20,000 bases of DNA, from the IMG/VR virus record IMGVR_UViG_3300032233_001922; one strand, 5' to 3'. The position numbers and the translations under genes are program-made. Under the pieces are notes generated by a model. It saw nothing but the letters and a program-made list of their open reading frames with translations, did no database searches and had not been told where the DNA came from. This DNA is from an uncultured virus (IMG/VR IMGVR_UViG_3300032233_001922). Its lineage: Duplodnaviria; Heunggongvirae; Uroviricota; Caudoviricetes. This document shows, piece after piece, positions 1 through 18,336 of this stretch. Each line of letters begins with the position of its first letter. Positions within the stretch are counted from its first letter, which is position 1.

Positions 1-2089
1 ATTTTTCAGAAAAACCTATTTTTTCCAAACCTTGATACGTTACTAAAGTAATAGTATATTCTGGAATTTCTTTATTTTCTACGCTTCTGTTAGTTCCTAA
101 ATTGAACCAATCATTTAATTTGTATTTAGAACCAGTTAAAGCACCATTGACAAAATGTGAATCCTTGAAAGCAACTGTATTTCGTTCAGCACCGTTAGTC
201 CAATAACCGAACATTTCGTAAATCCAGTTTTTATAAACTTGTTTAGGTACGGCAATTAACGGTCTTTTTATTGACCCTTGTTTTAGCAACATTGCTAAGT
301 TATGAATAGCAGTCAATGTTTTACCAAAACCAACATCATAAGCAAGGCATCCAGAATTGTTAATATTTAAAAACGCTAAACCGTTTCTTTGAACTGGTTT
401 TAATCTAAAATTATCTAAATTAAAAATCTTATTGTTAGCTTCAAAACCTACTGGAACTTTACTTAAATCGTAAGTAACAAAATTGTTGAATGATTTATTG
501 AAAATTAAATTTAAACCCATTAAATCGGCTCTTGTCAATGCAGTAGCCAAAAATTCAGAATAATATTTATCGCCTTCAATTTTAGCTAAAATACGTCTTT
601 CGTCTTTTTCTTTTTCTTGGTCTTTTTTATTTTTTTCTTTTGATGCTTCAGACAAAAATACATTTCCATTTCTGAAATATAAGTTTTTAATGTCATCTAC
701 TGTGGTTTTGTCAAGCATATTGTTATTCACATTATAGCCAAACCAAATTTCGTATGCTTCAAATAAACTTACAGATTTTTTACCATAATCTTTACCATAA
801 TCAACTTGTTTTTTTCGTCTATTATTGCGGTCATAATCGTCATAATGTCTTTGAATAGAAACACCACTATCTACATCTAAATCAACAATCATAAATGAAT
901 GTGATAAATCGTTTTCTTTAGACAAATATGGTCGTTCAGAAACAATAGTATTTCCAAAGTCAAAATTATATTTAGTTTTCAAAGCGTTATCAATTAAAGA
1001 TTCTTGCCATTGAGCAACCTCAATACCAAATTTTTCAATTAACAAATTTTTGTAACCACCTTCAAATTTATCAGTTTCACGGTTATATTTACCAACAAAT
1101 TTTTCTTTAATTTCAAAAATATCCCCAAAAACATACATATAAATAGGCACATAATCATCCCCATCGTAACATAATCCTTTTTGTTTCACAAGGTTTACAA
1201 GTTCCGCTTCATCAACAGTAGCAAATGAATCTACCTCTTTAAAATTTCTCTCACTTGCATAATACAATTCTTTGTTTTCATTTTTGATTACCCAAAAAAC
1301 CTCATTATCATATTCGTTTTTAAATTTTGTTTTAACACCTAAAAGCGTTCCAGTAGGCACGTTCTTAATGTCTTGAAATTGTTGATTTTTTAAATAAAAA
1401 CTTTGTGTAGCATAAGCTAATCTACCTCTGTTAGTTTTAGAAGGCAAAAACCATTTTTCCCAACCAAACATCGGAGAACCAAATTTCTGTTTATAGTAAA
1501 CGTACCCTTTAATTTCTGGAGTAGTTATCGTTGGACTATAAATTTTTAAACTTTCCTCAATTGTCAATATTTCTGCAACATCGCTTTTCGGCTCTTTTTC
1601 AAAATTTAAAATTTTATTTGATATTGCTACTTCTTTATTAGTCATATTTTCTATTCTTTTTTCTTTCCTAACAGTTTCTTTTACGGTTTCTTTTACGGTT
1701 TCTTTTACGGTTTCTTTTTGCGTTGGCGATTCTTTTTCACTTGAAGCACCAACAACTTTTTGAATTTCGTAAGGTATAATAGAATTAATATCATTTATGT
1801 TACCAACTGTTATAACTGGATTAATAAACCCACTACCTTGTTTCTCTTTACTTAAAATTTTGTTGTTTTCAGTATAGAACCACGCACTAAACAATGACTT
1901 ATCATAATCTGTATCTACTTGCCCCTTAGTTTCAGTCAAATATTTGTCAAATAGTTGCTCAAATTCATCTTTTAAATTATCGGGTATAAAACCATAAGAT
2001 AAACCTAAATTTTCTGGGGTTTCTTCTCCCTTATATTTTCTTAACAATTCGTAAATTGCTTTATTTCTCGCTATTGCTTTATTATTCAT
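1..2089 (-). CDS. SNF2/SF2-type helicase, DarB/polyvalent-protein-like (5' part; runs off the window)
   Basis: Not in the ORF track because it is open at the edge. ATG at 2089 (MNNKAIARNKAIYELL...) overlaps the stop of the 70-aa ORF. Manual translation near 200-410 gives LKPVQRNGLAFLNINNSGCLAYDVGFGKTLTAI...RPLIAVPKQVYKNW, i.e. Q motif, motif I (DVGxGKT) and motif Ia. Confidence 0.85.
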   Translation of the reverse strand, partial: MNNKAIARNKAIYELLRKYKGEETPENLGLSYGFIPDNLKDEFEQLFDKYLTETKGQVDTDYDKSLFSAWFYTENNKILSKEKQGSGFINPVITVGNINDINSIIPYEIQKVVGASSEKESPTQKETVKETVKETVKETVRKEKRIENMTNKEVAISNKILNFEKEPKSDVAEILTIEESLKIYSPTITTPEIKGYVYYKQKFGSPMFGWEKWFLPSKTNRGRLAYATQSFYLKNQQFQDIKNVPTGTLLGVKTKFKNEYDNEVFWVIKNENKELYYASERNFKEVDSFATVDEAELVNLVKQKGLCYDGDDYVPIYMYVFGDIFEIKEKFVGKYNRETDKFEGGYKNLLIEKFGIEVAQWQESLIDNALKTKYNFDFGNTIVSERPYLSKENDLSHSFMIVDLDVDSGVSIQRHYDDYDRNNRRKKQVDYGKDYGKKSVSLFEAYEIWFGYNVNNNMLDKTTVDDIKNLYFRNGNVFLSEASKEKNKKDQEKEKDERRILAKIEGDKYYSEFLATALTRADLMGLNLIFNKSFNNFVTYDLSKVPVGFEANNKIFNLDNFRLKPVQRNGLAFLNINNSGCLAYDVGFGKTLTAIHNLAMLLKQGSIKRPLIAVPKQVYKNWIYEMFGYWTNGAERNTVAFKDSHFVNGALTGSKYKLNDWFNLGTNRSVENKEIPEYTITLVTYQGLEKIGFSEK
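1671..1718 (-). repeat. 4 x 12-bp tandem repeat encoding (KETV)4 in the helicase ORF
   Basis: acagtttctttt followed by three copies of acggtttctttt. Confidence 0.9.
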
Positions 2090-2294
2090 TCTGAAACCCT
2101 TTAAGTGTTACTTCTACATCTGCAAGTACATTGGCAAAATTCCAACTTGGAAATTGCTCTAATCTATTGTAAATCATATTTACAACCAATTCCCTACCAT
2201 CTTTAAACTTTAGTTTATCAGATATTCGGTTGTATTGTTCGGAATCAAGATTATCTAATACCTTATTGATATTGTCTTTTATTTTTGCGTTCAT
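2082..2294 (-). CDS. hypothetical protein (70 aa)
   Basis: ORF abuts the upstream gene and overlaps the helicase start, suggesting translational coupling. Confidence 0.75.
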   Translation of the reverse strand: MNAKIKDNINKVLDNLDSEQYNRISDKLKFKDGRELVVNMIYNRLEQFPSWNFANVLADVEVTLKGFQNE

Positions 2295-2295
2295 T

Positions 2296-5022
2296 TTACT
2301 TTTTTCTTAAAATTAATATATCAGTTCCAATTTGTGTTTTTTCAAAAATATTAGAAGGCAACCTATAAGCATCTACCAACTCGGCAATTTCAAATATTTG
2401 TTTTTTAATTTCGTTATACGCTATACCGTTTCTCATAAATGAACTTGGAATTAAATAAACTCCTAAACCGCCCTTTTTAAGCAAATGTAACGACTGCAAA
2501 ATAAAAAAGTGTTCTACTTGACCTTTAAAACTAAAATAGCTTGAATATAAGCCAGAAAACTTACCGTAAGGAGGGTTTGCTACAACTAAATCAAAAGGTG
2601 CGTTCTTTAACCACGTTTCAGTTCCTTTTCTATTAAGTAATGTATTAAATCGAGGTTCTTTTAAAAATGCTTTTTCAAAATTGAAGTTATGCAACTCGGC
2701 ATTTGGAAATTCTCTTTCAAGTATTTTAAAATTATCTTTACTAATCTCAAAAGCAGTAATATTAGCATCTTTTAAATTTTTAATTAATCTACCGCTTCCC
2801 GTTGCTGGTTCTAAAACATTTCCACCTTTAAATCCATAATGTTGTGCTAAAGCTAACATTTTATCAGCAACTATTTGAGGTGTGAAAAATTCGTATAACT
2901 TACCTTTGCCTTGCTTACTACCTTCGGATTCAAAAGACTTTTCTTTTTTAGAACCTAAATTATCTTTTTTCGGTTCGTCTTTGATTTCATTTTCAAGCGC
3001 TAACCTACCATTTTTTATTTCTTCAAGAAATTTTACTCCCGACATTGGTTGAGTTTTCATTATTCCTTTATCGTCTGAAATAAAAAGATTTACAAAATAA
3101 CCTCTACGCTTGTCAAATTCTAATTTTACTCTTGCTTTTAAATTTAAGTTACCTATTTTGTAATCTAAAATTTTACCATCAAAATCTTTAATTTCAGTAA
3201 TAGGACAAAGTGAGTAATGTTCCATTTCTTTTATTGGAAGCGGTTTTGAATAAGTTACAACACCATATTGATAATTTTGTTGAGTAAACCTCAAAAAGTT
3301 ATCTTTTGGGTATGTTCCAATATCAAACGGTCTAACTGTTAAAACATATTCGTATTCATTGTCAATCGCACCACCATCGGCATATATACCACTATAGCCA
3401 CCTACTGCACCATCTACTTCAACATCAAGTAAATCATTGTAATTGTTCAAATCCCTTGAAGGACTGTTACCGCTTTTGGCATCTTTAACTAAACTTTCAG
3501 TTTTCCCACCATTAGCCATTTTTTCAAAATTATAGTTTTTGTAATTTCTGTCTTTAAAGTTTTTTGATTTGAATATTTTTGAATCTCTATTATCCGAATC
3601 CTCTGTAATTTCAGCGTAATATTCTATATGGTTTGGCGTTTCAATAGTAAAATTATAAACTTCAAATCCGTTTTTTGTTTCTCCTTTAAAAGTTCCAGTA
3701 GTCCACCTATTAGTATTATTCCATCTTGCATCAACTTTACTCCCTATTTTTGGTAAATTTTGTTTAACTTCTCCACCTTTTTTGTAAATACCTTTTTTTT
3801 CTGGATATAATTCATAATATCTTTTTTCAGTACCTATCCATAAAGGAATTTTTGAATTTTCTATTTCATTGTTTTCAATGTAATTGTGAACATCTTTTTC
3901 ATTGTGAAAAACTTTATCTACATTTTCAATAAAAATATTATTTCTATTTTCGGAAGTCGTATAAACGCTCAATCCTAAATAAGTGTGGTATCTATTATTT
4001 TCATTATGATTAGATTCTCTAACATTAGAAACTCTATCATATAATTGTAAATCTTTTTTGGTTAAATCTGAAATATTATCTAAACTTCCACCTTTTTTCA
4101 ACCCAGCTTTTTTAAGTAAAGTATAATATTCTGGATTTTCAAATAAATGGTCTTTTACAATTTTCATTTGTTCACGTTTGCTTGAAGTGTGTTCGCTTTC
4201 CGCTTCCATACCTAAACGAACTTGTTTTTTTAATTCAGCTAAAGGCACTTGATGAATATCCGTAATATCCCTTAATGAAAAACTTTCGGCTAAATGACCG
4301 CCACTTTTATATTCTTCTTCTTCTTCATATCCGTAATCTCCAGCAGTATTTAATGCTCTAAAACTTTCCGAATCTATTGAATAACATTGCTCTTGACTTA
4401 ATTCATCAGTTACCTCTGTTAATTCACTTTGTAATTTATCTTGTTCAGATATTAATTTTGCTCTTTCTTTAAAAGACAAATCCCCATCGTATGAATAGAC
4501 ATCATTACCCAAATTCATTTTTTCTATTTCTAAAATCCTATTTGATAGTTTTTTAACTTTATTTATAATTCTTAATGGCACTTTAAGTAAATGACCTCCA
4601 CCATTCATTTGCATCATAATTTCGTGGTCTGTCATAGTCTTACCACCGTACTTGTAACTTGCTCCAGTATGTTTAATGCTTTTAGGCATTTCCCCACCAT
4701 CGGCAAAAGAAACACCGCCACCACGTTTATTTATTTCTGATAAAATTTCACGGTTCGTGAGCATCTTGCCTTCAAACTCTCTTTTTGTAGTATCGCTTAC
4801 CGCTGGGGCAGTAATAACAACTTCTCCACCTTGCATCTCAAGTGGTTGCCCAGTTGATTTATTAACTGCTTTAATACCGCCTTCTGCGTGAGTTCTACCA
4901 ACTAAATAGCCAGACAAAGAACCCTTGTTGTGTATCATTGTTTGACCTTCTCTTTTACCAACAAGCACACCACCAGTCGGAGTTGCTTCTGCTTTATTTT
5001 CGGTTAAATTTTCTTTTCTCAT
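2296..5022 (-). CDS. Modular protein: N-terminal GxxHxxGG module, DUF5661-like region, DarA C-terminal-like domain, C-terminal N6-adenine DNA methyltransferase
   Basis: MTase motifs EFFTP, VLEPATGSG, VVANPPY, LKKGG (about 2296-2900). YVLTVRPFDIGTYPK...YGVVTYSKPL...YSL (about 3200-3356) resembles DarA_C. LGMEAESEHT...IVKDHLFENPEYYTLL (about 4100-4260) resembles DUF5661. Start moved to ATG 5022 because a promoter occupies 5043-5073. Confidence 0.85.
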   Translation of the reverse strand: MRKENLTENKAEATPTGGVLVGKREGQTMIHNKGSLSGYLVGRTHAEGGIKAVNKSTGQPLEMQGGEVVITAPAVSDTTKREFEGKMLTNREILSEINKRGGGVSFADGGEMPKSIKHTGASYKYGGKTMTDHEIMMQMNGGGHLLKVPLRIINKVKKLSNRILEIEKMNLGNDVYSYDGDLSFKERAKLISEQDKLQSELTEVTDELSQEQCYSIDSESFRALNTAGDYGYEEEEEYKSGGHLAESFSLRDITDIHQVPLAELKKQVRLGMEAESEHTSSKREQMKIVKDHLFENPEYYTLLKKAGLKKGGSLDNISDLTKKDLQLYDRVSNVRESNHNENNRYHTYLGLSVYTTSENRNNIFIENVDKVFHNEKDVHNYIENNEIENSKIPLWIGTEKRYYELYPEKKGIYKKGGEVKQNLPKIGSKVDARWNNTNRWTTGTFKGETKNGFEVYNFTIETPNHIEYYAEITEDSDNRDSKIFKSKNFKDRNYKNYNFEKMANGGKTESLVKDAKSGNSPSRDLNNYNDLLDVEVDGAVGGYSGIYADGGAIDNEYEYVLTVRPFDIGTYPKDNFLRFTQQNYQYGVVTYSKPLPIKEMEHYSLCPITEIKDFDGKILDYKIGNLNLKARVKLEFDKRRGYFVNLFISDDKGIMKTQPMSGVKFLEEIKNGRLALENEIKDEPKKDNLGSKKEKSFESEGSKQGKGKLYEFFTPQIVADKMLALAQHYGFKGGNVLEPATGSGRLIKNLKDANITAFEISKDNFKILEREFPNAELHNFNFEKAFLKEPRFNTLLNRKGTETWLKNAPFDLVVANPPYGKFSGLYSSYFSFKGQVEHFFILQSLHLLKKGGLGVYLIPSSFMRNGIAYNEIKKQIFEIAELVDAYRLPSNIFEKTQIGTDILILRKK

Positions 5023-5042
5023 ATTTTTATCATAATAAAAAA

Positions 5043-5073
5043 CAAATATAATCAATGTAATTGAAACTACAAA
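5043..5073 (-). promoter_or_regulatory. Bacteroidota sigma-A promoter for the modular MTase/helicase operon
   Basis: Minus strand TTTG (5073-5070), 19-nt spacer, TATATTTG (5050-5043), matching TTTG-N19-21-TAnnTTTG. Confidence 0.75.
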
Positions 5074-5393: not shown

Positions 5394-5562
5394 CGTTAAT
5401 GCTAAAAACTATACAATCCTTCTAAAAAAACATCAACTTCCTACTTACTATATACTTGGCTCGGCTATCCACGATTATACGCATTTTATCTGAAACTTCA
5501 ATAGATTGTTGACTGCCCACTTCTACCTACTCAAATAGTTTTTTTTTAAAAAAAATTAAGTA

Positions 5563-6282
5563 TTAAAACTTAAAATTCAATGATGTATTTAACGTAATAT
5601 TGTTGTAATCAATGATGTAAGAATCTCTAAAACTAGAATTTTGATTGTCGATATTAACTACTTGATTTTCAATTAAAAATGACCCTTTAAAATATTCTGC
5701 ATCAATACCTAAAAATATGTTCTTTGTCAATTTAATAGACAACCCAGCGGATGTAGTATATACAAATGAATTTGTTTTCGCTTCTTCTAGCGTGACAAAA
5801 AATCCAGATGTGCTTTGAAAATTTTCTTTAGGAGAAACAAAACCTCCGCTTCCACCATATATTTTAAGAGATAGATTTAATTTTTTTCTTTTATCAAGAT
5901 ATTTATTATATGAAATACCTAATAAATAAGATGAAAGTTCATATTTATTAGCACTTGAACTCCAGCTCCCTAACGAACTTGGCAATGAATTAGATATGTC
6001 TTTTGAATCAGAATCTAAGTTGTCATAAGGATTGTTTATTTTTGAGTATTTTAACTCTAACGCAATAAAATGACTTTGTTTAGTAGATATTTCTCTTGCA
6101 TACGAAAAAGAAATATTTGAACCATTTGAAGCGTAAACATCCCCTTCTGGATTGGATGTAAAACTGGGAACTGAAATTCCGTAAGATACAGAAATGTTGT
6201 TTTTTAAAGGTTTAATGTCTTGTGAGTTCACAAACATTGGAAAAACTAACAATAATACAAGTAACATTTTTTTTGTTTTCAT
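5563..6282 (-). CDS. Outer-membrane beta-barrel protein (moron-like)
   Basis: Sec signal peptide (MKTKKMLLVLLLVFPMFVNSQ), alternating amphipathic strands, C-terminal LNFKF; a TATCTTTG -7 box lies at 6323-6316. Confidence 0.75.
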   Translation of the reverse strand: MKTKKMLLVLLLVFPMFVNSQDIKPLKNNISVSYGISVPSFTSNPEGDVYASNGSNISFSYAREISTKQSHFIALELKYSKINNPYDNLDSDSKDISNSLPSSLGSWSSSANKYELSSYLLGISYNKYLDKRKKLNLSLKIYGGSGGFVSPKENFQSTSGFFVTLEEAKTNSFVYTTSAGLSIKLTKNIFLGIDAEYFKGSFLIENQVVNIDNQNSSFRDSYIIDYNNITLNTSLNFKF

Positions 6283-6461: not shown

Positions 6462-7739
6462 TTATTTTACTAATTTGTCTATAATCGCTTTGAATTGTTT
6501 TGCAATACCCTCCCACTTCATAGCGGAAACTTTGTTGTAAGCATTTTCTACTTTATCTTTTACCATTTCTTGTAATTCTAGTTGGTCGTTTGGCAAATTG
6601 TAAACAACCTCACATAAAGTTTTAACTTCCATTGGATTTGTAGTAAGTCTTATTTTTTCAAAGTCATTTACAAACACCGCTTGTTGGCTAAACATAAAAT
6701 TCAAAGTGTTCTCTCCATTGTCGGTTATTTCCGTAATAGAAGTATGCTTTGGACAAACCACAAGTGTTTTTGTAGCCATTGCTTCGGTAATTGTCAATCC
6801 CCAACCTTCCGCAGTTGTAGTTGTAATAAAACAATCGAATGAATTGTAAATTTTATTCAATTCCTCTAAAGTACAACCTTTATTTTCTGAATAGTCTTTT
6901 GGCAGTATTACATCTTTACCAACTTCTAATCCTACTCTATCACATAATCTGTAAATGTTTATTCCCATTGGGTCTAAAGGGTTGCAATGTAAATAAAGTA
7001 AGGCATTAGCACCGCTTGTGTGTTTGAACATAGCAAACCCCATAATTAAGCTACCAAAATCCTTTCTTACTTGATTTCTATTTACACTACCAAATACAAA
7101 CACATCTTCACTTCCGAAAAGTTCTTTTTTTGCTTTTAGTTTATCAGCATCAGAATAAGGGTAAAAATCGCTTGTATTAGTTCCGTGCGGTATAATCTTA
7201 ATCTTTTTGAATTGCGTGTCAGAAATCAAAGGTTTCATCACGCCTTTTGCGTATTGAGTGTATGTAATTACTTCATCAAAGAAATTTAAAACTTTTAAAT
7301 CGGCTAATCTTGGCTCACTATCTATTGGAAAGTAAATCATTGATTTAAAGTTTGGTCGATTTTCTTTTCTTTTAGTGTTCTTTACTTCTAATAGTTGCTC
7401 CGACATTGCGTTAATTACCTCTACATCTTGTAAAAAAAACAAAGCGTCAAAGTCGTTTTGATAAATCAATTTCAGCAACTCTATTCTTCTGTAAACATCT
7501 GCTCTTGTATCTTTGTCGCCAGTCTGTAAAGCTGGTATAACTTTTACGTTTGGTAGATAATCATAAGTTGCTTTGCTTCTGTCGTTAAGTCCAAAAATAA
7601 CAATGCTTAATTTTTTGTCTTTTGCCCATTCATCTACAAGTTCTTTAGCTACTGCACCAAACCCAGTTGTGCAATTCCAATCAGCATATACTAATAATGA
7701 TTTTTGTTTAACCTCTTTTTTGCGGTGTACGACTTTCAT
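6462..7739 (-). CDS. Glycosyltransferase, GT-B fold (GT4-like)
   Basis: TGFG N-terminal motif, IPHG, VNRNQVRKD, EGWGLTITEAMA (Ex7E motif). Confidence 0.9.
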   Translation of the reverse strand: MKVVHRKKEVKQKSLLVYADWNCTTGFGAVAKELVDEWAKDKKLSIVIFGLNDRSKATYDYLPNVKVIPALQTGDKDTRADVYRRIELLKLIYQNDFDALFFLQDVEVINAMSEQLLEVKNTKRKENRPNFKSMIYFPIDSEPRLADLKVLNFFDEVITYTQYAKGVMKPLISDTQFKKIKIIPHGTNTSDFYPYSDADKLKAKKELFGSEDVFVFGSVNRNQVRKDFGSLIMGFAMFKHTSGANALLYLHCNPLDPMGINIYRLCDRVGLEVGKDVILPKDYSENKGCTLEELNKIYNSFDCFITTTTAEGWGLTITEAMATKTLVVCPKHTSITEITDNGENTLNFMFSQQAVFVNDFEKIRLTTNPMEVKTLCEVVYNLPNDQLELQEMVKDKVENAYNKVSAMKWEGIAKQFKAIIDKLVK

Positions 7740-7779
7740 AATTTGTTGTTTTTAAGTTTCTTATTGCAAATATAATAAA

Positions 7780-8406
7780 TTAATCTATTCCTTGTTCTCT
7801 CCTATCAGACAAACTCATAACATTATAAGTTGGAGGGCAATTTTCTGCTTTTTTGTGTTTACCATTCTGCATCATATTTTGTATCAAAGCGAAATCATGA
7901 CCATATTCTGCATCGTGAATAGGCATTTGTTTTAAAAAGTCAGTTCTTACGATTAATTCGCTATGCCCTATCATACCATATTGCAGTTGTGCATTTCTTA
8001 TTGCGTTTCTCGGTGCGACAAAACTATCAAAATAAACAAAATCTAAATCAGTTCCTTCTATTTGAGAAAGGTAGTTCTCAAAATGATTCGGTAATATAAT
8101 GTCATCATTGGCAAAGAAAGTAAAGTATTTACCTTCTGCTAATCCTATGTTAATATTTGTAATTGCAAATCCGTGTCCTCCTTTATTTATTGGATTATTG
8201 GCTATATAAAAATGATTTCCTTTAGCTTGACAATCATTCACAATATCATTAAAATATCCACTATCAATAAAATCTTGCATTACTGGACAACCATCTCCAA
8301 TTACAAGTGCTTCCCAATTATTAGCGGTTTGATTGGCAATACATTCTATTGCTCTTATAGTTCTTTGCGGTCTGCCAAAGCAAGGCATTGATACTGTTAA
8401 TCTCAT
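7780..8406 (-). CDS. Glycosyltransferase family 2 (GT-A)
   Basis: LTVSMPCFGR, IANQT..WEALVIGDG, FFANDDIILPNH. Confidence 0.85.
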   Translation of the reverse strand: MRLTVSMPCFGRPQRTIRAIECIANQTANNWEALVIGDGCPVMQDFIDSGYFNDIVNDCQAKGNHFYIANNPINKGGHGFAITNINIGLAEGKYFTFFANDDIILPNHFENYLSQIEGTDLDFVYFDSFVAPRNAIRNAQLQYGMIGHSELIVRTDFLKQMPIHDAEYGHDFALIQNMMQNGKHKKAENCPPTYNVMSLSDRREQGID

Positions 8407-8633
8407 AGTTGTTTTTCTTTTTTATATTCTATTTCTTGTATTCCAGATGGATATGCAATTAATACAAATTCTTCATTAAAATAATTCTCGTATTCGATTT
8501 TAAATCTTCCGTTTGACATTTGTGTTATTATGCAATAAGGTTCATAAACTCCTTTGTGGCAATCTCTTTTTTGAACTCCTTTAGGTCTTGGAACATAATT
8601 AACTCCGCAAACTCTTATGTAATGTAATTCCAT
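8403..8633 (-). CDS. hypothetical protein (76 aa)
   Basis: ORF with ATGA overlap to the next gene. Confidence 0.65.
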   Translation of the reverse strand: MELHYIRVCGVNYVPRPKGVQKRDCHKGVYEPYCIITQMSNGRFKIEYENYFNEEFVLIAYPSGIQEIEYKKEKQL

Positions 8634-8637
8634 AATT

Positions 8638-8718
8638 TTATTTATCTTTTTTCACATATCCAACTAACACAAACTTTCCGTAGCACCATTTGTAGTATGG
8701 TATTTCATCTTCTTTCAT
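8638..8718 (-). CDS. micro-ORF (26 aa, MKEDEIPYYKWCYGKFVLVGYVKKDK)
   Basis: Fills the gap; its ATG overlaps the TGA of the LpxA-like gene. Confidence 0.45.
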   Translation of the reverse strand: MKEDEIPYYKWCYGKFVLVGYVKKDK

Positions 8719-9398
8719 AACTCCAAACTTTCAAATACATTACAAATTCTGTTTACCGCTTCTCCAGTAAAGTTTTGTTTATGATAATCATTTTCCTTTA
8801 TGTACTTGGCTGGATTGCCAACGTAAACTCCAAAGCATTGTGGTTGTAGTTTTTTAGGTATGATAGCACCCATACCAATCATTGCGTAACTTCCTATTTT
8901 AGAAAATTGATGACAAATGCTCCCTAAACCCATATTTACCGAATAACCCAATAGGGAATGACCGCCAATTAATACATTACAACTAATTGTGCAATTATCA
9001 TAAATCGTTGAATCGTGTCCAACGTGGCTACCTCTTAGCATAATGATATTATTGTATAATATGGTTGGTTTCTCGCATCCAGCGTTAATAGTTACATATT
9101 CACGAATTACGTTATTATTTCCAATTTCAACCCCTTTGTTTGGCTCTCCAAAGAACTCTTTGTGTTCTGGTTCTGTACCGATTGAACAAAACGCTTCAAA
9201 TCGGTTGTTACTTCCTATTTTAGTGTTGCCAGTTATTACACAAAAAGCACCAATGTAATTATCATCTCCTAACTGAACATCATCTCCAATAATTGCAGTA
9301 GGGTGTATGAAGTTGCCACCACCTCTAATTATAAATTTATAACTTCCGTTAAGAGTTGAGTGTTGATTTTTGTTTTGATATGGTGTAGTATCTTCCAT
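8715..9398 (-). CDS. LpxA-like hexapeptide-repeat acyltransferase
   Basis: IHPTAIIG, IGNNNVIREYVTINAG, SHVGHDS, LIGGH, HQFSKIGSYAMIG parallel the LpxA motifs; the C-terminal helical domain appears absent. Confidence 0.85.
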   Translation of the reverse strand: MEDTTPYQNKNQHSTLNGSYKFIIRGGGNFIHPTAIIGDDVQLGDDNYIGAFCVITGNTKIGSNNRFEAFCSIGTEPEHKEFFGEPNKGVEIGNNNVIREYVTINAGCEKPTILYNNIIMLRGSHVGHDSTIYDNCTISCNVLIGGHSLLGYSVNMGLGSICHQFSKIGSYAMIGMGAIIPKKLQPQCFGVYVGNPAKYIKENDYHKQNFTGEAVNRICNVFESLEL

Positions 9399-9400
9399 AA

Positions 9401-9493
9401 TTATTGATTTAAAATTTTAAAAAGAAATATTAAAAACGCAAAAAATAACAACCACATAAGAATTTCTATAATTAATCTTTTAATTTTTTTCAT
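9401..9493 (-). CDS. micro membrane protein (30 aa, MKKIKRLIIEILMWLLFFAFLIFLFKILNQ)
   Basis: Fills the gap between two genes with 2-nt spacing on each side; one hydrophobic segment. Confidence 0.45.
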   Translation of the reverse strand: MKKIKRLIIEILMWLLFFAFLIFLFKILNQ

Positions 9494-9495
9494 AG

Positions 9496-10134
9496 CTATT
9501 TATTAAATTTTGTTATGTATTTTTCCTCTGTTGGTAATCCACCCCACATATCAATATACATTGCTCTGTTTTGCGAAAAACGATTGTTTAGAATTGGGTC
9601 TTTGGCTATCGTCATTGAATTTCTATATACAATTGGGTCTAAAAAAGAAGTCCACGATTTTTTAGCATTTACTAAAGTCATTTTGTAATCAAATGAATTG
9701 TCCTCAAAATATGCTGGGAAAAACTCCTCATCAAACTTACCAGCTTTTTTCCAAATATCAACTCTTAAAATAAAACTACACCAATTTTGAAAAGAATTAA
9801 TAAAGTCGGCATCTTGATTATTTCTTAAAATCATTTTTATTTCGTGTTCGGTTCTACCTAAAACTATATCATCATTAAGCATTAAAACGTGTGTAGCTTT
9901 CATTTTATCGGCATAATCCATTAGCATATTCCAACTTTTAGCAACCCCCAAATTTTCACTTGGTCGATATATCATAAAGTTTTCCTCTCTTGTAATTATA
10001 TTTTGTTTACCATTATCGCAAATTGCAATATGCGTTTCTTTAAAATCCTCAAAATATTTTTCTAACGCTTCATTAAGTAGGTCTGCTCTATTAAGAGTTG
10101 GTATAGCTACTATTAGTTTAAATTCTTGGCTCAT
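9496..10134 (-). CDS. Glycosyltransferase family 2 (GT-A)
   Basis: VAIPTLNR, ICDNG, NLGVAKSWN, MLNDD, FDEEFFPAYFED. Confidence 0.9.
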   Translation of the reverse strand: MSQEFKLIVAIPTLNRADLLNEALEKYFEDFKETHIAICDNGKQNIITREENFMIYRPSENLGVAKSWNMLMDYADKMKATHVLMLNDDIVLGRTEHEIKMILRNNQDADFINSFQNWCSFILRVDIWKKAGKFDEEFFPAYFEDNSFDYKMTLVNAKKSWTSFLDPIVYRNSMTIAKDPILNNRFSQNRAMYIDMWGGLPTEEKYITKFNK

Positions 10135-10272: not shown

Positions 10273-10297
10273 AGTTTTATTGTTGTTTAATTTTTTG

Positions 10298-10368
10298 TTG
10301 GTTTACAAGGACTCGAACCTTGAAAGACTGCACCAAAAACAGTTGTGTTACCATTACACCATAAACCA
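10298..10368 (-). tRNA. trnQ: tRNA-Gln(UUG)
   Basis: Acceptor stem TGGTTTA/TAAACCA, D arm GTGTAATGGTAACAC, anticodon arm ACTGT-TTTTGGT-GCAGT, T arm CAAGG-TTCGAGT-CCTTG; CCA not encoded. Confidence 0.95.
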
Positions 10369-14244: not shown

Positions 14245-14427
14245 TTAAAACGGACAATCCGATTTTTTAGGTTTTAATATTAATTGTTGGTACTCACGTT
14301 TAATTTTTTCTTGTATCGCTTCACGAATGAACTTACCCACATCAACATTTAAAGACTTCATTTTTTGAAGCGTATTTAATTGCGTTTCTGAAATCCGTAT
14401 CACTTTGGTTTTAGTAAGTAGTTTCAT
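14245..14427 (-). CDS. putative ribbon-helix-helix (CopG/Arc-like) DNA-binding protein
   Basis: TKVIRISETQLNTL...VDVGKFIREAIQEKI, a beta-strand/helix/helix pattern. Confidence 0.6.
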   Translation of the reverse strand: MKLLTKTKVIRISETQLNTLQKMKSLNVDVGKFIREAIQEKIKREYQQLILKPKKSDCPF

Positions 14428-14460
14428 AATTGCAATACATTTATAGCGGTTAGCAAGTAG

Positions 14461-15075
14461 TTACAAGCAAGCTGCAAACATCCCGACCTGATTAACCTGA
14501 TTTGCGTTATAACTGCCATTTGCACAATTCAGAATATGTAATCCTAATTCTGAATTAACAGCGTTTCTATCTTCTAATTTCTTTGAATGAGCGTGGTTTT
14601 TTTTACCTACATATTGCTTCATCATTGTTCCTACTTCATCCTTTGGCAATTCTATTTTAGGAATTTTAAAATTTGACCATAAATAATGCCTCCCAACTTC
14701 TGCCGTTGGTGGTATAAAATATTCGTAATAACTAACTACATTTTCAACACAAAACTTTCCTTTAAAGAATGTTTTTAAGAATATTATTTCTTGCCATAAT
14801 TCCATTTTAGGATAACGGCTTTCAGTAATATAATTTATAAAATAGTTTGCTCTGCTATGCGTTTGGCAAGGTGGCGAAGTCCAGATAAAATCAAACTCTG
14901 AATAATGGTCTAATAAATATTTGTGAGCATCAGCAACCACAACATTATCATTCGGAAACAAAGCTTTGTATTTTTCAGCAATTTTAGCATCAAACTCAAC
15001 CGCTGTAATTTCGTGGTCGTTGCCCCATAATTTACGGTTTCCACCAATCCCACAATATAAATTTAGTATTTTCAT
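14461..15075 (-). CDS. C5-cytosine DNA methyltransferase (cassette 1)
   Basis: ILNLYCGIGG (motif I), WTSPPCQ (IV), VENV (VI). Confidence 0.85.
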   Translation of the reverse strand: MKILNLYCGIGGNRKLWGNDHEITAVEFDAKIAEKYKALFPNDNVVVADAHKYLLDHYSEFDFIWTSPPCQTHSRANYFINYITESRYPKMELWQEIIFLKTFFKGKFCVENVVSYYEYFIPPTAEVGRHYLWSNFKIPKIELPKDEVGTMMKQYVGKKNHAHSKKLEDRNAVNSELGLHILNCANGSYNANQVNQVGMFAACL

Positions 15076-15105
15076 AAGTCCATTTTGTTTAAATTAAAAG
15101 CCTGC

Positions 15106-15194
15106 TTGTAACAAGCGTTTGGAGCAAGTTGCAGAAACACTTTCTTTCTATTCAAGCTCTCGGTGGCAACCTGCACCAAGCGCAAGCGTTAGCA
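15106..15194 (+). repeat. attC-like site 1
   Basis: TTGTAAC-aa-GCGTTTGGAGCAAGTTGC...GCAACCTGCACCAAGCGC-aagc-GTTAGCA. Confidence 0.8.
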
Positions 15195-15200
15195 GTAATA

Positions 15201-16022
15201 CTACATTCCATCTCCGAATAGAGTTTTCTGCGTTAAATCTTTTTCTTTTCTTTTTTCTTCCCACGCTTTTTTAATACGTTCTTCAATAATATTACAGTAT
15301 TCATTTGATATTTCACTTCCTATCCAGTTGCGGTTATTTAAAATACTCATTTTTGCTACCGTTCCACTTCCCATAAAGCAATCATAAATTAAATCATTTT
15401 CATTGCTCCAACTTATTATGTGGTCATTTGCTAATTGTTCAGGAAATTGTGCAGGATGCCCTTTTGTTCCTGCGTTTGTAGGTATTTCCCAAACATTACC
15501 TTTTTGTTTATACTCCTTTACAGCATCATTTTTATGACCTTCTGTTGGTGTGTTTTGTGAGTTTGTTTGGTAAAATGTTCTTCCATTGGTTTTATTTCCT
15601 TTGGTTTTGCACTCTACCATTATTGGATTAAATGTGTTTGGTTTACCTTTACTAAAAACAAACATATACTCAAACTCTTGCTCATATCTGTTATGAGTTA
15701 ATGGTATGTAATTTATTTTCCTATACATCATTGTATCGTGCAAATTAAAACCAATCTCTTTGAAGTAAAGTGCTTGTTTAAAACTCGTTCCACTTTCAGT
15801 TCCTTTTACTGTTGCATCGCCTACAATCCAAATAACTACACCACCTTGTTTTGTAATTCTATACAATTCCTTTGCTATATCTTCAAAAGGAAAAGAATAT
15901 CCATTATAAGTTCGTAATCCATCATAAGGCGGAGAAGTTACCGTTAAATCCACAAAGCAATCAGGCATATTTGCCATTGTTTCTAAATTGATTTCATTGT
16001 AATTTTTATTTATCTCAATCAT
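15201..16022 (-). CDS. N4-cytosine/N6-adenine DNA methyltransferase, beta class (cassette 2)
   Basis: VDLTVTSPPY near the N-terminus; HPAQFP and IYDCFMGSGT near the C-terminus. Confidence 0.9.
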   Translation of the reverse strand: MIEINKNYNEINLETMANMPDCFVDLTVTSPPYDGLRTYNGYSFPFEDIAKELYRITKQGGVVIWIVGDATVKGTESGTSFKQALYFKEIGFNLHDTMMYRKINYIPLTHNRYEQEFEYMFVFSKGKPNTFNPIMVECKTKGNKTNGRTFYQTNSQNTPTEGHKNDAVKEYKQKGNVWEIPTNAGTKGHPAQFPEQLANDHIISWSNENDLIYDCFMGSGTVAKMSILNNRNWIGSEISNEYCNIIEERIKKAWEEKRKEKDLTQKTLFGDGM

Positions 16023-16034
16023 ATTTTTAATTTT

Positions 16035-16175
16035 TCAAATTAATATTTGCCATCGCTCAAAAAAGAAAAGAAAAAGGTTCAGTTCTCCGAATGAGCATTT
16101 GTGGTTAATTACCGTACTACTGCTAACACGTGCTATAAGCAAGTTTGCCAATAACGTTTGTGCTAAATTTGACAT
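16035..16175 (-). CDS. leader ORF starting in the loop of attC-like site 2
   Basis: ATG at 16175 gives MSNLAQTLLANLLIARVSSST...; it ends 12 nt before the MTase start. Confidence 0.35.
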   Translation of the reverse strand: MSNLAQTLLANLLIARVSSSTVINHKCSFGELNLFLFFFERWQILI

Positions 16176-16215
16176 TTCTGCAAGGCAAACCTGCTCATAG
16201 CACCATCCGTTACTG
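16121..16215 (+). repeat. attC-like site 2
   Basis: TGCTAAC-ac-GTGCTATAAGCAAGTTTGCC...GGCAAACCTGCTCATAGCAC-catcc-GTTACTG. Confidence 0.8.
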
Positions 16216-16221
16216 GCTATG

Positions 16222-16458
16222 TTACTCACGATAGTCATCATATATTTCGATAGAGCCATCGTTAATAATTACTCCTCCAAATTTATTTGAAAAAGAAATA
16301 AGTTCTTCCAAAGAATTAATTTCTATCTCTGGCTGTTTATTTGATTTTCTAAATTTTAAATAATCAGAATGTTCAAATTCAAATCCTATTTCTTGAAGTT
16401 TTAACCTATCTTCTTCATTTGGATAAAAATAACCTGTTGTTGATAATGTGAATTTCAT
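16222..16458 (-). CDS. hypothetical protein (cassette 3)
   Basis: 78-aa ORF filling the cassette. Confidence 0.75.
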   Translation of the reverse strand: MKFTLSTTGYFYPNEEDRLKLQEIGFEFEHSDYLKFRKSNKQPEIEINSLEELISFSNKFGGVIINDGSIEIYDDYRE

Positions 16459-16484
16459 TTTGTTTGTGGATTAAAAAACACAGC

Positions 16485-16615
16485 CAGTAACATACGCTAC
16501 ACAATAGTTGGGTTAATTGTTTAATTTAAAGTTTGTTTTGCACTTTTATAATCTGTCATTATCCGAAGTCTGGGTGTGTGCTTTTCCCAGCCATCGTGTA
16601 GCTTTTCCGTTAGTG
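16485..16615 (+). repeat. attC-like site 3
   Basis: CAGTAAC-atac-GCTACACAATAGTTGGG...CCCAGCCATCGTGTAGC-ttttcc-GTTAGTG. Confidence 0.8.
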
Positions 16616-17011
16616 GAAATTCGAGCGAACAATCTCACGACCTAATTTTATAATGAAATAATCTTCGTGTCCAATCGCTCCCCAATCAGTAAAACCCATT
16701 CCTATTTCAATTCCTTTACATTCTAACGTGACTTTAGGACTGTTTTTATTGTAGCCATTAGTAAACTCAACCCAATCGTATTTTTTAAAAACCGCTTCCC
16801 AATTTGATTGGTTATTTTCGTATTCAATTTCATTACATAATCTTTGAATCCAATATCTTTTGACTTCCCTATATTCTTCCGTTTTCTCCCCAGAAAGAAT
16901 CATATCGAACCATTGTTTTTTTAAAGTCAATTTCAATACCCGATTAGAACTGCCACTAACACTTGCTAAACAAGATTCGGGTATTGGTGTATTATTTAAG
17001 GTCTGTTTCAT
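16610..17011 (-). CDS. ASCH/PUA-like domain protein (cassette 4)
   Basis: VLKLTLKKQWFDMILSGEKTEEYRE...VEFTNGY...YFIIKLG. Confidence 0.8.
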   Translation of the reverse strand: MKQTLNNTPIPESCLASVSGSSNRVLKLTLKKQWFDMILSGEKTEEYREVKRYWIQRLCNEIEYENNQSNWEAVFKKYDWVEFTNGYNKNSPKVTLECKGIEIGMGFTDWGAIGHEDYFIIKLGREIVRSNFH

Positions 17012-17089
17012 TTTTGTTATTATTAGTTATTAATCGAAAATCTGTTTTTTATTTTGTCCCGAACCTCGTTTAGCAAGGGAACGTTATGT
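16954..17089 (+). repeat. attC-like site 4
   Basis: CACTAAC-a-CTTGCTAAACAAGATTCGGG...CCCGAACCTCGTTTAGCAAG-ggaac-GTTATGT. Confidence 0.8.
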
Positions 17090-17094
17090 GTAAT

Positions 17095-17286
17095 TTATAT
17101 GATACAACCCATTCCTTTGTATTCTTGTTTTTTACAGTTTTTACATTCGTGTAAATTTTGAAAGCAAATCATTTCTCCATCTTTAGGAATTGGTGTATAT
17201 CTATCAATGTTTTTCCATTTGTGAAACCCTAAACTACACATAACATACGTTTGTAGCAAGAGGACTTTAGTCTTTAATTTAAACAT
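17095..17286 (-). CDS. small Cys/His putative zinc-binding protein (cassette 5)
   Basis: CSLGFHKW...HECKNCKK. Confidence 0.65.
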   Translation of the reverse strand: MFKLKTKVLLLQTYVMCSLGFHKWKNIDRYTPIPKDGEMICFQNLHECKNCKKQEYKGMGCII

Positions 17287-17368
17287 AATTTTGTACTTTT
17301 ATAATTAGTCATTAATTCAATAATCAGGATTTATTTTTTCCTCCTGCTACAAGCGTCCACCGTTAAAA
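17238..17368 (+). repeat. attC-like site 5
   Basis: ACATAAC-at-ACGTTTGTAGCAAGAGGA...TCCTCCTGCTACAAGCGT-ccacc-GTTAAAA. Confidence 0.8.
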
Positions 17369-17599
17369 CATATTCCCAGTAATTTGCATATTTGCCAACA
17401 TCGTATCTTCATTTTCATCTGACTTCATTTGTAATGAAATACTTTCGCCCCAACACACACAATTAACGTTTCCTTCTATATCTATTTCAAACCTTATAAA
17501 TCCAGCCGAAACTGGATTAAAGTTTTTAAAGTCTGAATGATTATTTAATCCAGAAAATACAATAATTTTTTTGTCGTTTGTTTTAATATACTTTGCCAT
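17363..17599 (-). CDS. hypothetical phage protein (78 aa)
   Basis: ORF whose TAA stop is the TTA of the last G|TTA core. Confidence 0.75.
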   Translation of the reverse strand: MAKYIKTNDKKIIVFSGLNNHSDFKNFNPVSAGFIRFEIDIEGNVNCVCWGESISLQMKSDENEDTMLANMQITGNMF

Positions 17600-17604
17600 A
17601 AGTT

Positions 17605-18336
17605 CTATTTTTTCAATTGTTTAAGTTTAGTTTTAAGTTCCGTTGGAAATTCATTTTTAAGTACCCAATCTAAATAACCCATATCGTTAACTACTGGCTT
17701 GTGCATATTTTTACCAAACGACCAACATACTTCCCCGTTTTCATTTATGTAAGTTTTACCCCCTACATCGTTTCTTTTACGATTTCCTTGACAATAAACA
17801 TCTATTTCAGCTGGTGTTGTTTCTGGCTTGTTTTCTAATTGGTGCATTAATATTTCAAACGTTGCTCTAACATCGTTTAAAGCATCGTGCGAACCCTCTA
17901 AATCTTTTCCAGTATATCTTTTGTAAACCGCCCCAATATTGTTTGGATTAAGTAGGCGTTCATACTTTAAAACATCTACTAAATTTAACTCCCAAGTCGG
18001 GAACTCAATATCGCATCTACCAAACTCCTCAATCAAAAGAGGTATATCATAAGAATCAGAATTGTAACCGCCAATATCACATCCTTCAAAATAATTAAAC
18101 AATGATTTTGCTATTTGTGAAAAGTAAGGCGCATCTTTAATTGTTTCGTCTGTTATTCCGTGTACATCTGATGCTTCTTTTGGAATTGGTATTAGTGGTT
18201 TTACAAGAATGTTTTTTTCTTCTTTGTTTCCATCTAAATCAATTTTAATACAAGCTATTTGTACTATCCTATCGTTTTGCACAGATACTCCAGTAGATTC
18301 TAAATCAAAAAAAATAATTGGTTTTGTGATTTTCAT
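17605..18336 (-). CDS. DEDDh 3'-5' exonuclease (DnaQ/epsilon-like)
   Basis: IFFDLESTG, VHGI, GYNSDSYD, HDALNDV. Confidence 0.92.
   Translation of the reverse strand: MKITKPIIFFDLESTGVSVQNDRIVQIACIKIDLDGNKEEKNILVKPLIPIPKEASDVHGITDETIKDAPYFSQIAKSLFNYFEGCDIGGYNSDSYDIPLLIEEFGRCDIEFPTWELNLVDVLKYERLLNPNNIGAVYKRYTGKDLEGSHDALNDVRATFEILMHQLENKPETTPAEIDVYCQGNRKRNDVGGKTYINENGEVCWSFGKNMHKPVVNDMGYLDWVLKNEFPTELKTKLKQLKK

What the first reader, a model, noticed from the sequence alone, without database searches (positions are those of the whole stretch)
14461..17365. All cassette genes are antisense to canonical orientation and use the recombination core as a stop codon
Seen: the R''...R' polarity is on the + strand but every cargo ORF is on the - strand, co-oriented with the phage operon. 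The core TAA is the actual stop for the ORFs ending at 14461, 16610 and 17363, and is an in-frame second stop 12 nt later for those ending at 15201 and 16222. Established: canonical cassette genes usually read towards their attC from Pc. Inference: a distinct inverted cassette class expressed by phage read-through transcription, which would be silent if it entered a host integron.
Basis: partly seen in the sequence, partly recalled or inferred. Interest (0 to 1): 0.82.

Follow-up and report, generated by a model that had tools for sequence, protein, structure and literature searches.

The report
Backward-facing integron-like cassettes in a phage
A Flavobacterium-type phage carries a row of small mobile gene cassettes separated by integron-like DNA hairpins, but the genes face the opposite way from those in bacterial integrons and no integrase is present, which suggests a separate phage-adapted form of this gene-capture system.

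Summary
Window 14461-17365 holds five cassettes (c1-c5). Each ends in a hairpin site (TAAC-body-GTTA), and every ORF is on the - strand.

Five lines of evidence place the crossover at the + strand right-hand G|TTA box:
- The - strand folds better, through G.T pairs.
- Conserved wobbles sit next to AAC/GTT and inside the 12-bp R box.
- Two calibrators agree: aadA7 and a real Bacteroidia integron.
- Cassettes are shuffled between phages 6H and FPSV-D15.
- Copies of the window's own methylase cassette occur in other metagenomes.

So each cassette is TTA..ORF(antisense)..TAAC-body-G, inverted relative to integron cassettes. The array docks at a fixed attI-like point 36 nt upstream of a conserved RHH gene (23 of 23 loci, all with different cargo and no hairpin). 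The genes point towards that point, not away from it.

The box TAA is the stop, or an in-frame second stop, in 30 of 45 sites (p=5e-6).

No tyrosine recombinase was found in 8 of 9 phage genomes searched. An integron integrase was found in 1 of 401 host-class genomes.

One family member (Polaribacter phage P12002L) has been published as a phage CALIN. The inversion, the docking site and the site architecture have not. Read-through expression and silence in a host integron remain untested.

The parts
14245..14427 (-). RHH-type small gene (60 aa) that marks the fixed end of the array
   Evidence: phrog_25647 at E 4e-32, with a weak Pfam DUF6290 hit. Homologues sit at the same array end in FPSV-D15, 6H and mymlan6-1 and in 26 viral loci.
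14428..14460 (.). attI-like docking site: the conserved leader of the RHH gene, ending at G14460 where the first cassette begins
   Evidence: In 23 of 23 distinct loci TAAC lies exactly 36 nt before the RHH ATG. The 36 nt are conserved. The DNA beyond them is unrelated cargo with no hairpin.
14461..15188 (+). Cassette c1: C-5 methylase-like ORF 14461-15075 (- strand) plus site S1 (15109-15191)
   Evidence: PF00145 N-terminal match and phrog_363. S1 has a stem of 16 pairs. Its left box matches S0 at 10 of 12.
15189..16209 (+). Cassette c2: N6/N4 DNA methylase ORF 15201-16022 (- strand), a conserved 5' leader, and site S2 (16124-16212)
   Evidence: PF01555 at E 6e-43. S2 forms 20 uninterrupted pairs on the - strand, 2 of them G.T. 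In other metagenomes the homology starts at 15187/15188.
16210..16609 (+). Cassette c3: 78-aa ORF 16222-16458 (- strand) plus site S3 (16488-16612)
   Evidence: S3 alone is conserved in FPSV-D15 between different genes.
16610..17083 (+). Cassette c4: phrog_625 ORF 16610 to about 16936 (- strand) plus site S4 (16957-17086). The listed start at 17011 lies inside S4, so the real start is probably a TTG near 16936.
   Evidence: The phrog_625 match starts at residue 25. S4 forms 20 pairs on the - strand, z -3.5. The start position is an inference.
17084..17362 (+). Cassette c5: small Cys-rich ORF 17095 to 17241 or 17286 (- strand) plus site S5 (17241-17365)
   Evidence: The left box matches S4's right box at 11 of 12.
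17363..17599 (-). Flanking 78-aa ORF whose stop is the TAA of S5's right box. No partner box lies upstream of it, so it is the resident DNA beyond the last cassette.
   Evidence: S5's right box matches no left box (3-4 of 12).

Best explanation
Window 14428-17365 is an integron-like cassette platform carried by a Flavobacterium-type phage.

Layout. Five cassettes are stacked at a fixed attI-like point in the leader of a small RHH gene. Each cassette runs, on the + strand, from TTA (just after the G of the preceding GTTA box), through an antisense ORF, to a TAAC box, a hairpin body and a final G. The cassettes therefore move by crossover at G|TT, as integron cassettes do. The recombining, better-folding 'bottom' strand is here the coding strand. 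The attC lies on the 5' side of its gene, and the genes point towards the docking site.

The stop codon. On the coding strand every cassette ends in TAA|C. The invariant crossover triplet therefore gives a built-in stop codon, whatever the neighbouring cassette is.

Shown: the anatomy, the box complementarity across each ORF, the breakpoints at the GTTA box, the fixed junction, the gene orientation, and the absence of a phage tyrosine recombinase.

Inferred: that recombination uses the folded - strand, that expression is by read-through of the leftward early operon, and that the cargo (orphan methylases, small proteins) serves the phage against host restriction. The enzyme is unknown.
For: 1. 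Box pairing across ORFs. The left box of S(n) matches the right box of S(n-1) at 9-11 of 12 in 5 of 5 cases. All other pairings give 3-7 of 12.
2. Fold strand. The - strand has the lower free energy in 4 of 5 sites. G follows AAC in 91% and T precedes GTT in 94% of 57 sites on that strand. A T.G wobble at the eighth base after GTT is seen in 5 of 5 window pairs, and T is fixed there in 23 of 23 junction loci.
3. Calibrators read the same way on their bottom strands. One is the aadA7 bottom strand printed in PMC9892861 Table S3. The other is two attCs beside a true intI in a Bacteroidia genome (421.9 bits), whose cassette genes (an MTase-SNase fusion and R.MjaI) lie on the other, top strand.
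4. Phages 6H and FPSV-D15 are 99-100% identical in shared units but differ in cassette order. Each shared unit starts at C|GTTA. Each unit that is not cut short by an insertion or a variant body ends at body-GTTA|. Each unit carries the hairpin on the right of the ORF, while the hairpin on its left differs.
5. Copies of the window's methylase cassette in three other runs begin at 15187/15188, next to unrelated DNA.
6. At the RHH junction, 23 of 23 loci have TAAC 36 nt before the ATG, different cargo and no hairpin.
7. All 27 array-type loci that carry the cassette's upstream 18-mer have a hairpin on the right of the unit. About half lack one on the left (by eye).
8. Flanking ORFs lie on the better-folding strand 120 times and on the opposite strand 20 times, around 91 hairpin calls.
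Against: - No recombinase was identified. PF00589 is absent from the window's phage record G001, from mymlan6-1, from P12002L and from 5 complete viral genomes. It is present only as one tyrosine recombinase gene (presumably the lysogeny integrase) in the FPSV-D15 record.
- An integron integrase was found in only 1 of 401 host-class genomes searched.
- The one published member of the family, P12002L_attC1, gave no recombinants with IntI1.
- The stems of S1-S5 show no extrahelical bases. In canonical attCs those bases set strand choice.
- The same left box is joined to at least 8 different hairpin bodies, and one body ('A') to many different left boxes. In both cases homology ends exactly at TAAC. 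So exchange also happens at the left box, or bodies are homogenised. Polarity may not be absolute.
- A few junctions have no hairpin at all (L010, L027).
- The crossover was mapped mainly in relatives and in one window cassette, not in all five.
- Several counts rest on a home-made hairpin finder that misses bulged stems.
Confidence: 0.72

Rival explanations
1. The sites have the canonical polarity. The - strand would be the top strand, each gene would read into its own attC downstream, and the TAAC at the gene's end would simply be the usual inverse core. The reader's polarity would then be arbitrary.
For: The AAC/GTT boxes are symmetric, so either reading fits them. A stop codon inside ..TAAC is common in ordinary cassettes (recalled). 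The 5' arm of the - strand carries 3-4 more unpaired bases than its 3' arm. That superficially resembles extra bases on the 5' (R''/L'') arm of a top strand.
Against: Under this reading, the last cassette of every array would lack its attC at the RHH junction in 23 of 23 loci. Shared units in 6H and FPSV-D15 carry the hairpin on the gene's 5' side, and the hairpin on the 3' side differs. G.T wobbles and the AAC-G/T-GTT signature mark the - strand as bottom, as in aadA7 and the G286 integron.
Confidence: 0.05
2. There is no site-specific recombination. The hairpins would be conserved intergenic linkers, and modules would be shuffled between co-infecting phages by homologous or single-strand-annealing recombination within them, as proposed for T4-type promoter/stem-loop cassettes.
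For: Hairpin body A is nearly identical in 39 viral loci with different flanks on both sides, which makes it an ideal homology patch. The phage encodes RecT and an exonuclease. The methylase cassette has about 80-nt conserved ends around a core only about 30% identical in protein.
Against: New junctions arise where the shared sequence is only CGTTA: between different bodies Y and S3-like, and between Z and W. At least 20 unrelated cargo ends are joined at one nucleotide position to the RHH leader. Homologous exchange does not explain why the box left of each hairpin is complementary to the start of its own cassette.
Confidence: 0.1
3. The structures are selected mainly as RNA. They would be hairpins in the polycistronic early mRNA that stabilise, process or couple translation of the cistrons, and their likeness to attC sites would be secondary.
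For: The better-folding strand, with G.U-compatible wobbles, is the transcribed sense strand. The hairpins sit in the 5' leader of each gene. The methylase cassette also has a 21-nt stretch in its 5' leader that is 95% complementary to its 3' coding end (I4).
Against: An RNA role does not explain the box complementarity across ORFs, the breakpoints at G|TTA or the fixed docking junction. There is no Rfam match. The sites have no T-run terminators. An RNA role may well coexist with recombination.
Confidence: 0.08

Closest known systems
Integron gene cassettes with attC sites; clusters of attC sites lacking an integrase (CALIN; Cury et al. 2016, PMC4889954, passages read)
   Same: AAC...GTT boxes around an imperfect palindrome. 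The R'' box is complementary to the cassette's own first bases. Crossover is at G|TT. Cassettes are stacked at one fixed site. Cargo is small, mostly single genes.
   Different: Genes lie on the bottom strand and point towards the docking site. The window's stems have no extrahelical bases. The spacers are asymmetric, 4-5 nt against 1-2 nt. The R box is about 12 bp with a conserved G.T wobble. There is no integrase in the phage, and almost none in the host class.
Phage-borne CALINs, in particular Polaribacter phage P12002L (Qi et al. 2023, PMC9892861; passages and Table S3 read)
   Same: P12002L_attC1 is a member of this site family: it lies between two methylase genes on the - strand, and its body recurs in locus L010. 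The paper calls its bottom strand the same way as here.
   Different: The paper reports 2 sites 'with divergent directions'. My scan finds at least 8 more in that phage. The second published site is the hairpin-less end box plus AT-rich flank. The paper does not note the gene inversion, the docking site or the family architecture. attC1 gave no recombinants with IntI1.
Sedentary chromosomal integrons with near-identical attCs (Vibrio repeats; recalled)
   Same: One hairpin type (body A) serves many unrelated cassettes.
   Different: Those arrays sit beside intI and attI with a Pc promoter that reads outward, and their genes are mostly in sense.
Reverse-oriented cassettes with their own promoters, such as toxin-antitoxin cassettes in chromosomal integrons (recalled; the reviews searched gave no figure)
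   Same: The gene is antisense to the site polarity.
   Different: There they are a minority with internal promoters. Here every cassette in every array examined is inverted, and no promoter motif was found in the sites.
A canonical integron in a Bacteroidia genome (G286, locus L091)
   Same: Same bacterial class as the hosts. Cargo is a DNA methylase with a restriction enzyme. The sites have TAAC...GTTA boxes.
   Different: intI is adjacent. The spacers are 6 and 5 nt, with an extra base on the bottom strand's 3' arm. The genes lie on the top strand and point away from intI.

Membership tests
Integron attC site / gene cassette | Inverse core (..AAC) and core (GTT..) flanking an imperfect inverted repeat that folds as a hairpin | tested here: met
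   Seen in 5 of 5 window sites, with stems of 15-20 pairs.
Integron attC site / gene cassette | The R'' outer bases are complementary to the first bases of the same cassette, not to the site's own R' outer bases | tested here: met
   9-11 of 12 with the previous site's right box, against 3-5 of 12 with the site's own right box.
Integron attC site / gene cassette | Crossover at G|TT of R' | tested here: met
   Homology between shuffled relatives and metagenome copies begins at C|GTTA. The fixed junction is at TAA|C in 23 of 23 loci. Resolution is limited to the shared CGTTA.
Integron attC site / gene cassette | Extrahelical bases on the 3' arm of the bottom strand | tested here: not met
   The stems of S1-S5 pair without bulges. 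The asymmetry lies in the spacers: (5,1) in 37, (5,2) in 19 and (4,1) in 8 of 86 filtered sites. One extra T is present in P12002L_attC1 and in the body of L010.
Integron attC site / gene cassette | The cassette gene lies on the top strand and reads towards its own attC | tested here: not met
   The genes lie on the fold (bottom) strand, and the hairpin travels on the gene's 5' side.
Integron attC site / gene cassette | Recombined by an integron integrase | not testable with these tools
   In the published assay, P12002L_attC1 gave no recombinants with IntI1.
Integron attC site / gene cassette | Recognised by the IntegronFinder covariance model or by HattCI | not testable with these tools
   Neither model is on hand. 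The paper says attC1 was predicted by HattCI only.
Complete integron | An intI gene next to attI and the array | tested here: not met
   No PF00589 match in G001, mymlan6-1, P12002L or 5 complete viral genomes. TIGR02249 scored above its cut-off in 1 of 401 class genomes.
attI site | A fixed site where the first cassette joins the platform without an intervening attC | tested here: met
   23 of 23 loci.
attI site | Bound by the integrase, and next to a promoter that reads out into the cassettes | tested here: not met
   There is no integrase, and the genes read into the site rather than out of it.
Intrinsic terminators | A GC-rich stem followed by a T run | tested here: not met
   3 terminator-like hits against 1.7 expected. 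Only one touches a site, at S1's left box.
T4-type promoter/stem-loop shuffling cassettes (recalled) | An early promoter joined to the stem-loop | tested here: not met
   No Bacteroidetes-type promoter motif (consensus recalled) lies in any site. The sigma-70-like hexamers in the S3 and S5 loops are on the antisense strand and are no more frequent than chance overall.

The most novel reading that the evidence does not exclude
Flavobacterial phages would carry a self-contained, integrase-less relative of the integron. It would consist of an attI-like site in the leader of a conserved RHH gene, its own class of attC-like hairpins, and cassettes built in mirror image so that the recombining strand is the coding, non-template strand. 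The recombinase would not be IntI. It could be an unrecognised phage enzyme, or a host Xer-type enzyme recruited with the RHH protein's help. Transcription of the early operon would itself expose the hairpins as single strands, tying cassette shuffling to infection.
Probability: 0.3. Interest if true: 0.9.

Novelty: new variant of a known kind. Interest (0 to 1): 0.72.

Why it matters
Integrons are the textbook bacterial gene-capture device, and their logic (integrase, attI, an outward promoter, sense cassettes) is treated as fixed. Here the same recombination-site grammar is used in mirror image, in virulent and temperate phages of a phylum where integrons are nearly absent, and with no integrase in sight.

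If it holds, three things follow:
- Integron-type cassette exchange is not tied to IntI-bearing bacteria.
- Phages have a dedicated way to swap anti-restriction methylases and other small genes.
- Annotation tools that assume sense cassettes, or that need extrahelical bases, miss or mis-orient these arrays. The one published member was called with 'divergent directions'.

It also makes the question of which enzyme does this directly testable, because cultured phage-host pairs exist (mymlan6-1, FPSV-D15, 6H, P12002L).

Tried and rejected
The window's own assembly is not held. The nearest record, G001, ends at window 14546, inside cassette 1, so it gave no comparison of the array.
- The 18-mer scan also hit three loci of an unrelated phage type (L007, L018, L021). 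Their indels are not at such sites, so I dropped them.
- L016 against L035 showed an extra 228-nt unit bounded by GTTA on both sides with no hairpin. It fits neither polarity cleanly and I did not use it.
- The automatic count of hairpin-less boxes (31 left, 15 right) was unreliable, because the finder misses bulged bodies such as body A. I reclassified by eye.
- The genome-contig scan with body A found 7 stretches on 5 metagenome-assembled contigs. None was beside an integrase, and the one long contig looks like a prophage with a degenerate single copy.
- Rfam gave nothing.
- Promoter and terminator scans gave nothing that bears on the sites.
- An RNA run (X20) holds a 90-95% copy of cassette 2 as contigs. 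That cannot show transcription or strand. Runs with small word shares that I did not lay were not used for habitat.
- I scanned 47 ORFs against Pfam: those of at least 110 aa with an ATG start in the first 40 kb of G001. This found RecT and no tyrosine, serine or HUH recombinase. Smaller ORFs, and the roughly 5 kb of G001 between that stretch and the window, were not scanned.
- Literature searches found only Qi et al. 2023 on attC sites in phages of this bacterial group. The papers I opened for cassette orientation give no frequency for inverted cassettes.
Full report
**Context.** The window is low-GC (about 30%), and every sizeable ORF is on the - strand.
- Pfam and PHROGs name phage early and replication functions: a Phg_2220_C replication protein, HTH regulators and a DnaQ-type exonuclease.
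- They also name a large DNA-modification set: a DarB-like methylase/helicase, four transferase ORFs (three glycosyltransferase-like, one hexapeptide-repeat) and two small methylases.
- The nearest held record, G001, is the same phage, but its contig stops at window 14546.
- The closest named relatives are Flavobacterium phages.

**The observation.** Between 14428 and 17365 the genes are separated by five structured sites. On the + strand each starts with ..TAAC and ends with GTTA..:
- S1 15109-15191
- S2 16124-16212
- S3 16488-16612
- S4 16957-17086
- S5 17241-17365

A sixth GTTA box with no hairpin (S0) lies at 14460.
The TAA of the box ends the ORFs at 14461, 16610 and 17363, and lies in frame 12 nt past the stops at 15201 and 16222.
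- Five of six in frame has p=0.018. Among 57 strong sites from relatives, 30 of the 45 with an ORF are in frame (p=5e-6).

**Are these integron-type sites?**
- The left box of each site is the reverse complement of the right box of the previous site, across the intervening ORF. Matches are 10, 10, 11, 9 and 11 of 12, against 3-7 of 12 for every other pairing, including a site's own two boxes.
- This is the signature of cassettes that recombine at G|TT. The bases after the crossover belong to the next cassette and pair with that cassette's own inverse core.
- Nothing in Rfam matches.
- The hairpins lack T runs.

**Which strand is which?** The boxes alone are symmetric, so I looked for asymmetries.
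1. The - strand folds better in 4 of 5 sites, because mismatches on the + strand are G.T pairs on the - strand.
2. On the - strand, G follows AAC and T precedes GTT (91% and 94% of 57 sites). The spacer after AAC is 4-5 nt, against 1-2 nt before GTT.
3. Inside the extended R box there is one systematic mismatch: A in the right box where the left box's reverse complement has G. It occurs in 5 of 5 window pairs, and it is a T.G wobble on the - strand.
4. Two calibrators with known polarity carry the AAC-G...T-GTT signature on their bottom strands. One is the aadA7 bottom strand printed in Qi et al. 2023, Table S3. The other is two attCs beside a genuine intI (TIGR02249, 421.9 bits) in a Bacteroidia genome. 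There the cassette genes, an N6_N4 methylase-SNase fusion and R.MjaI, lie on the opposite, top strand and run away from intI.

In the window that signature is on the coding strand.

**Mapping the crossover.** Flavobacterium phages 6H and FPSV-D15 are near-identical in shared parts but order their cassettes differently.
- Each shared unit (99.7-100% identity) begins at C|GTTA.
- Each shared unit that is not cut short by an insertion or a variant body ends at body-GTTA|.
- For example, 6H 5793-6132 equals D15 5560-5899. It is an ORF plus the hairpin on its right. The hairpin on its left differs (Y against S3-like), and so does the right-hand neighbour.
- A second unit sits after hairpin W in D15, but directly after the RHH leader in 6H.
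- The only sequence shared at these new joints is CGTTA.

The window's own methylase cassette recurs at 90-99% identity in contigs of three other runs. In all three, homology begins at 15187/15188, next to unrelated DNA.

So the mobile unit is TTA..ORF (antisense)..TAAC-body-G. The crossover is at the + strand right box, which is the 5' box of the - strand, as for an attC bottom strand.

**A fixed docking site.** I searched viral contigs with the 60-aa RHH protein and obtained 26 loci.
- In the 23 distinct loci I could align, TAAC lies exactly 36 nt before the RHH start codon.
- Those 36 nt are conserved.
- Everything upstream is a different cargo gene's 3' end, with no hairpin.
- FPSV-D15, 6H and mymlan6-1 show the same arrangement.

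This behaves like an attI. It is one place where first cassettes join the platform without an attC in between. All cassette genes point towards it. In the Bacteroidia integron they point away from attI.

**Generality.**
- An 18-mer from the methylase cassette's upstream box hit 28 viral loci. The 25 array-type loci among them, together with the window and mymlan6-1 (27 in all), each have a hairpin ending in GTTA to the right of the box. About half lack one on the left of the unit (by eye).
- One hairpin body ('A') occurs in 39 viral loci, with many different boxes on each side. This resembles the uniform attCs of sedentary integrons.
- Around 91 hairpin calls, flanking ORFs lie on the better-folding strand 120 times and on the other strand 20 times.

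**What argues against, or remains open.**
- No recombinase was found. PF00589 is absent from G001, mymlan6-1, P12002L and five complete viral genomes. It is present only once, as a single tyrosine recombinase gene (presumably the lysogeny integrase) in the FPSV-D15 record.
- A Pfam scan of 47 larger ORFs of G001 found RecT and nothing else suggestive.
- An integron integrase was found in 1 of 401 genomes of the host class. This agrees with the rarity of integrons in Bacteroidetes noted in the IntegronFinder 2.0 paper.
- The window's stems have no extrahelical bases.
- The same left box is joined to at least 8 different bodies, with homology ending exactly at TAAC. Some exchange at the left box, or homogenisation of bodies (perhaps by RecT), must therefore occur.
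- Rare junctions have no hairpin at all.
- Expression was not tested. The scans found no Bacteroidetes-type promoter motif inside any site, and no terminator-like site except one at S1's left box. That fits read-through.

**Relation to what is known.**
- Qi et al. 2023 (PMC9892861; I read passages and the supplementary tables) reported CALINs in phages. One is in Polaribacter phage P12002L, with two methylase genes.
- Their attC1 is a member of this family and is called with the same polarity. It lies between methylases gp35 and gp36, which are on the - strand.
- It was predicted by HattCI only, and it gave no recombinants with IntI1.
- They described the two sites as divergent. They did not note the gene inversion, the docking site or the further sites, of which I find at least 8.
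- Six full-text searches found no other description.

**Verdict.** The inversion is real and general for this phage family. The system works like an integron cassette array read in mirror image, but it fails several membership tests for a canonical integron: gene orientation, extrahelical bases and integrase. I file it as a new variant of a known kind. The enzyme and the mode of expression remain open.

Noticed in passing
window 15188-15270 and 16040-16127: The N6 methylase cassette has ends that are about 85-90% conserved in some 20 viral loci, while the methylase proteins are only about 30% identical (about 76-101 of 273 residues). A 21-nt purine run in the 5' leader (16059-16079) is 95% complementary to the 3' coding end (15236-15256). 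Both ends also share a direct TCTCCGAAT motif.
   Followed up: partly
window 16513-16561 and 17266-17314; L002 about 5470-5520: The loops of S3 and S5 share a 49-nt element (80% identical) that is also present in the S3-like site of FPSV-D15. It carries sigma-70-like hexamers on the antisense (+) strand. Its function is unknown.
   Followed up: partly
L092 about 4122-5010 (phage 6H): A fragment annotated as cytochrome c oxidase subunit I, apparently host-derived, is inserted inside a cassette hairpin. It truncates the hairpin and the 3' end of the next cassette's gene.
   Followed up: no
L005 (P12002L): 31118-31313, 32492-32694, 32798-32924, 38036-38089, 39123-39244, 39516-39709, 40762-40948: The published phage has many more hairpin sites of this family than the two reported, all between - strand early genes.
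   Followed up: partly
L091 197-2135 (genome G286): The only integron found in 401 Bacteroidia-class genomes carries a restriction-modification pair (MjaI-type endonuclease and an N6_N4 methylase-SNase fusion) as a cassette. The phage arrays carry orphan methylases.
   Followed up: partly
window 14546 / end of G001: The nearest public record of this phage breaks off inside cassette 1. Assemblies may tend to break in the array.
   Followed up: no
L119 8717-9580 (G001): The phage encodes a RecT-family annealing protein. Together with the DnaQ-type exonuclease at window 17605-18336, it could homogenise the hairpin bodies.
   Followed up: no
run X3, record 7: One contig joins the cassette's left box and a hairpin (16121-16159 plus 48 other letters) directly to the start of the same box type (15187 onward). 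This is either two tandem cassettes with the same boxes or an excised circle.
   Followed up: no
L027, L010 and L026: L027 (near 1253 in the orientation used) and L010 (near 3513) have junctions where a TAAC box abuts a GTTA box with 0-4 nt between them and no hairpin. L026 (near 680-720) has a GTTAC...GTAAC hairpin of the reverse arrangement.
   Followed up: partly
window 10297-10368: A tRNA-Gln (anticodon TTG) gene lies on the - strand within the early region.
   Followed up: no
window 2-5055 and 6462-10134: A DarB-like methylase/helicase is read as two long ORFs (2296-5055 and 2-2089) with a 70-aa ORF between them. Nearby are four transferase ORFs (three glycosyltransferase-like, one hexapeptide-repeat); one has a weak, sub-threshold hit to TET-associated glycosyltransferase. 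This suggests DNA hypermodification.
   Followed up: no
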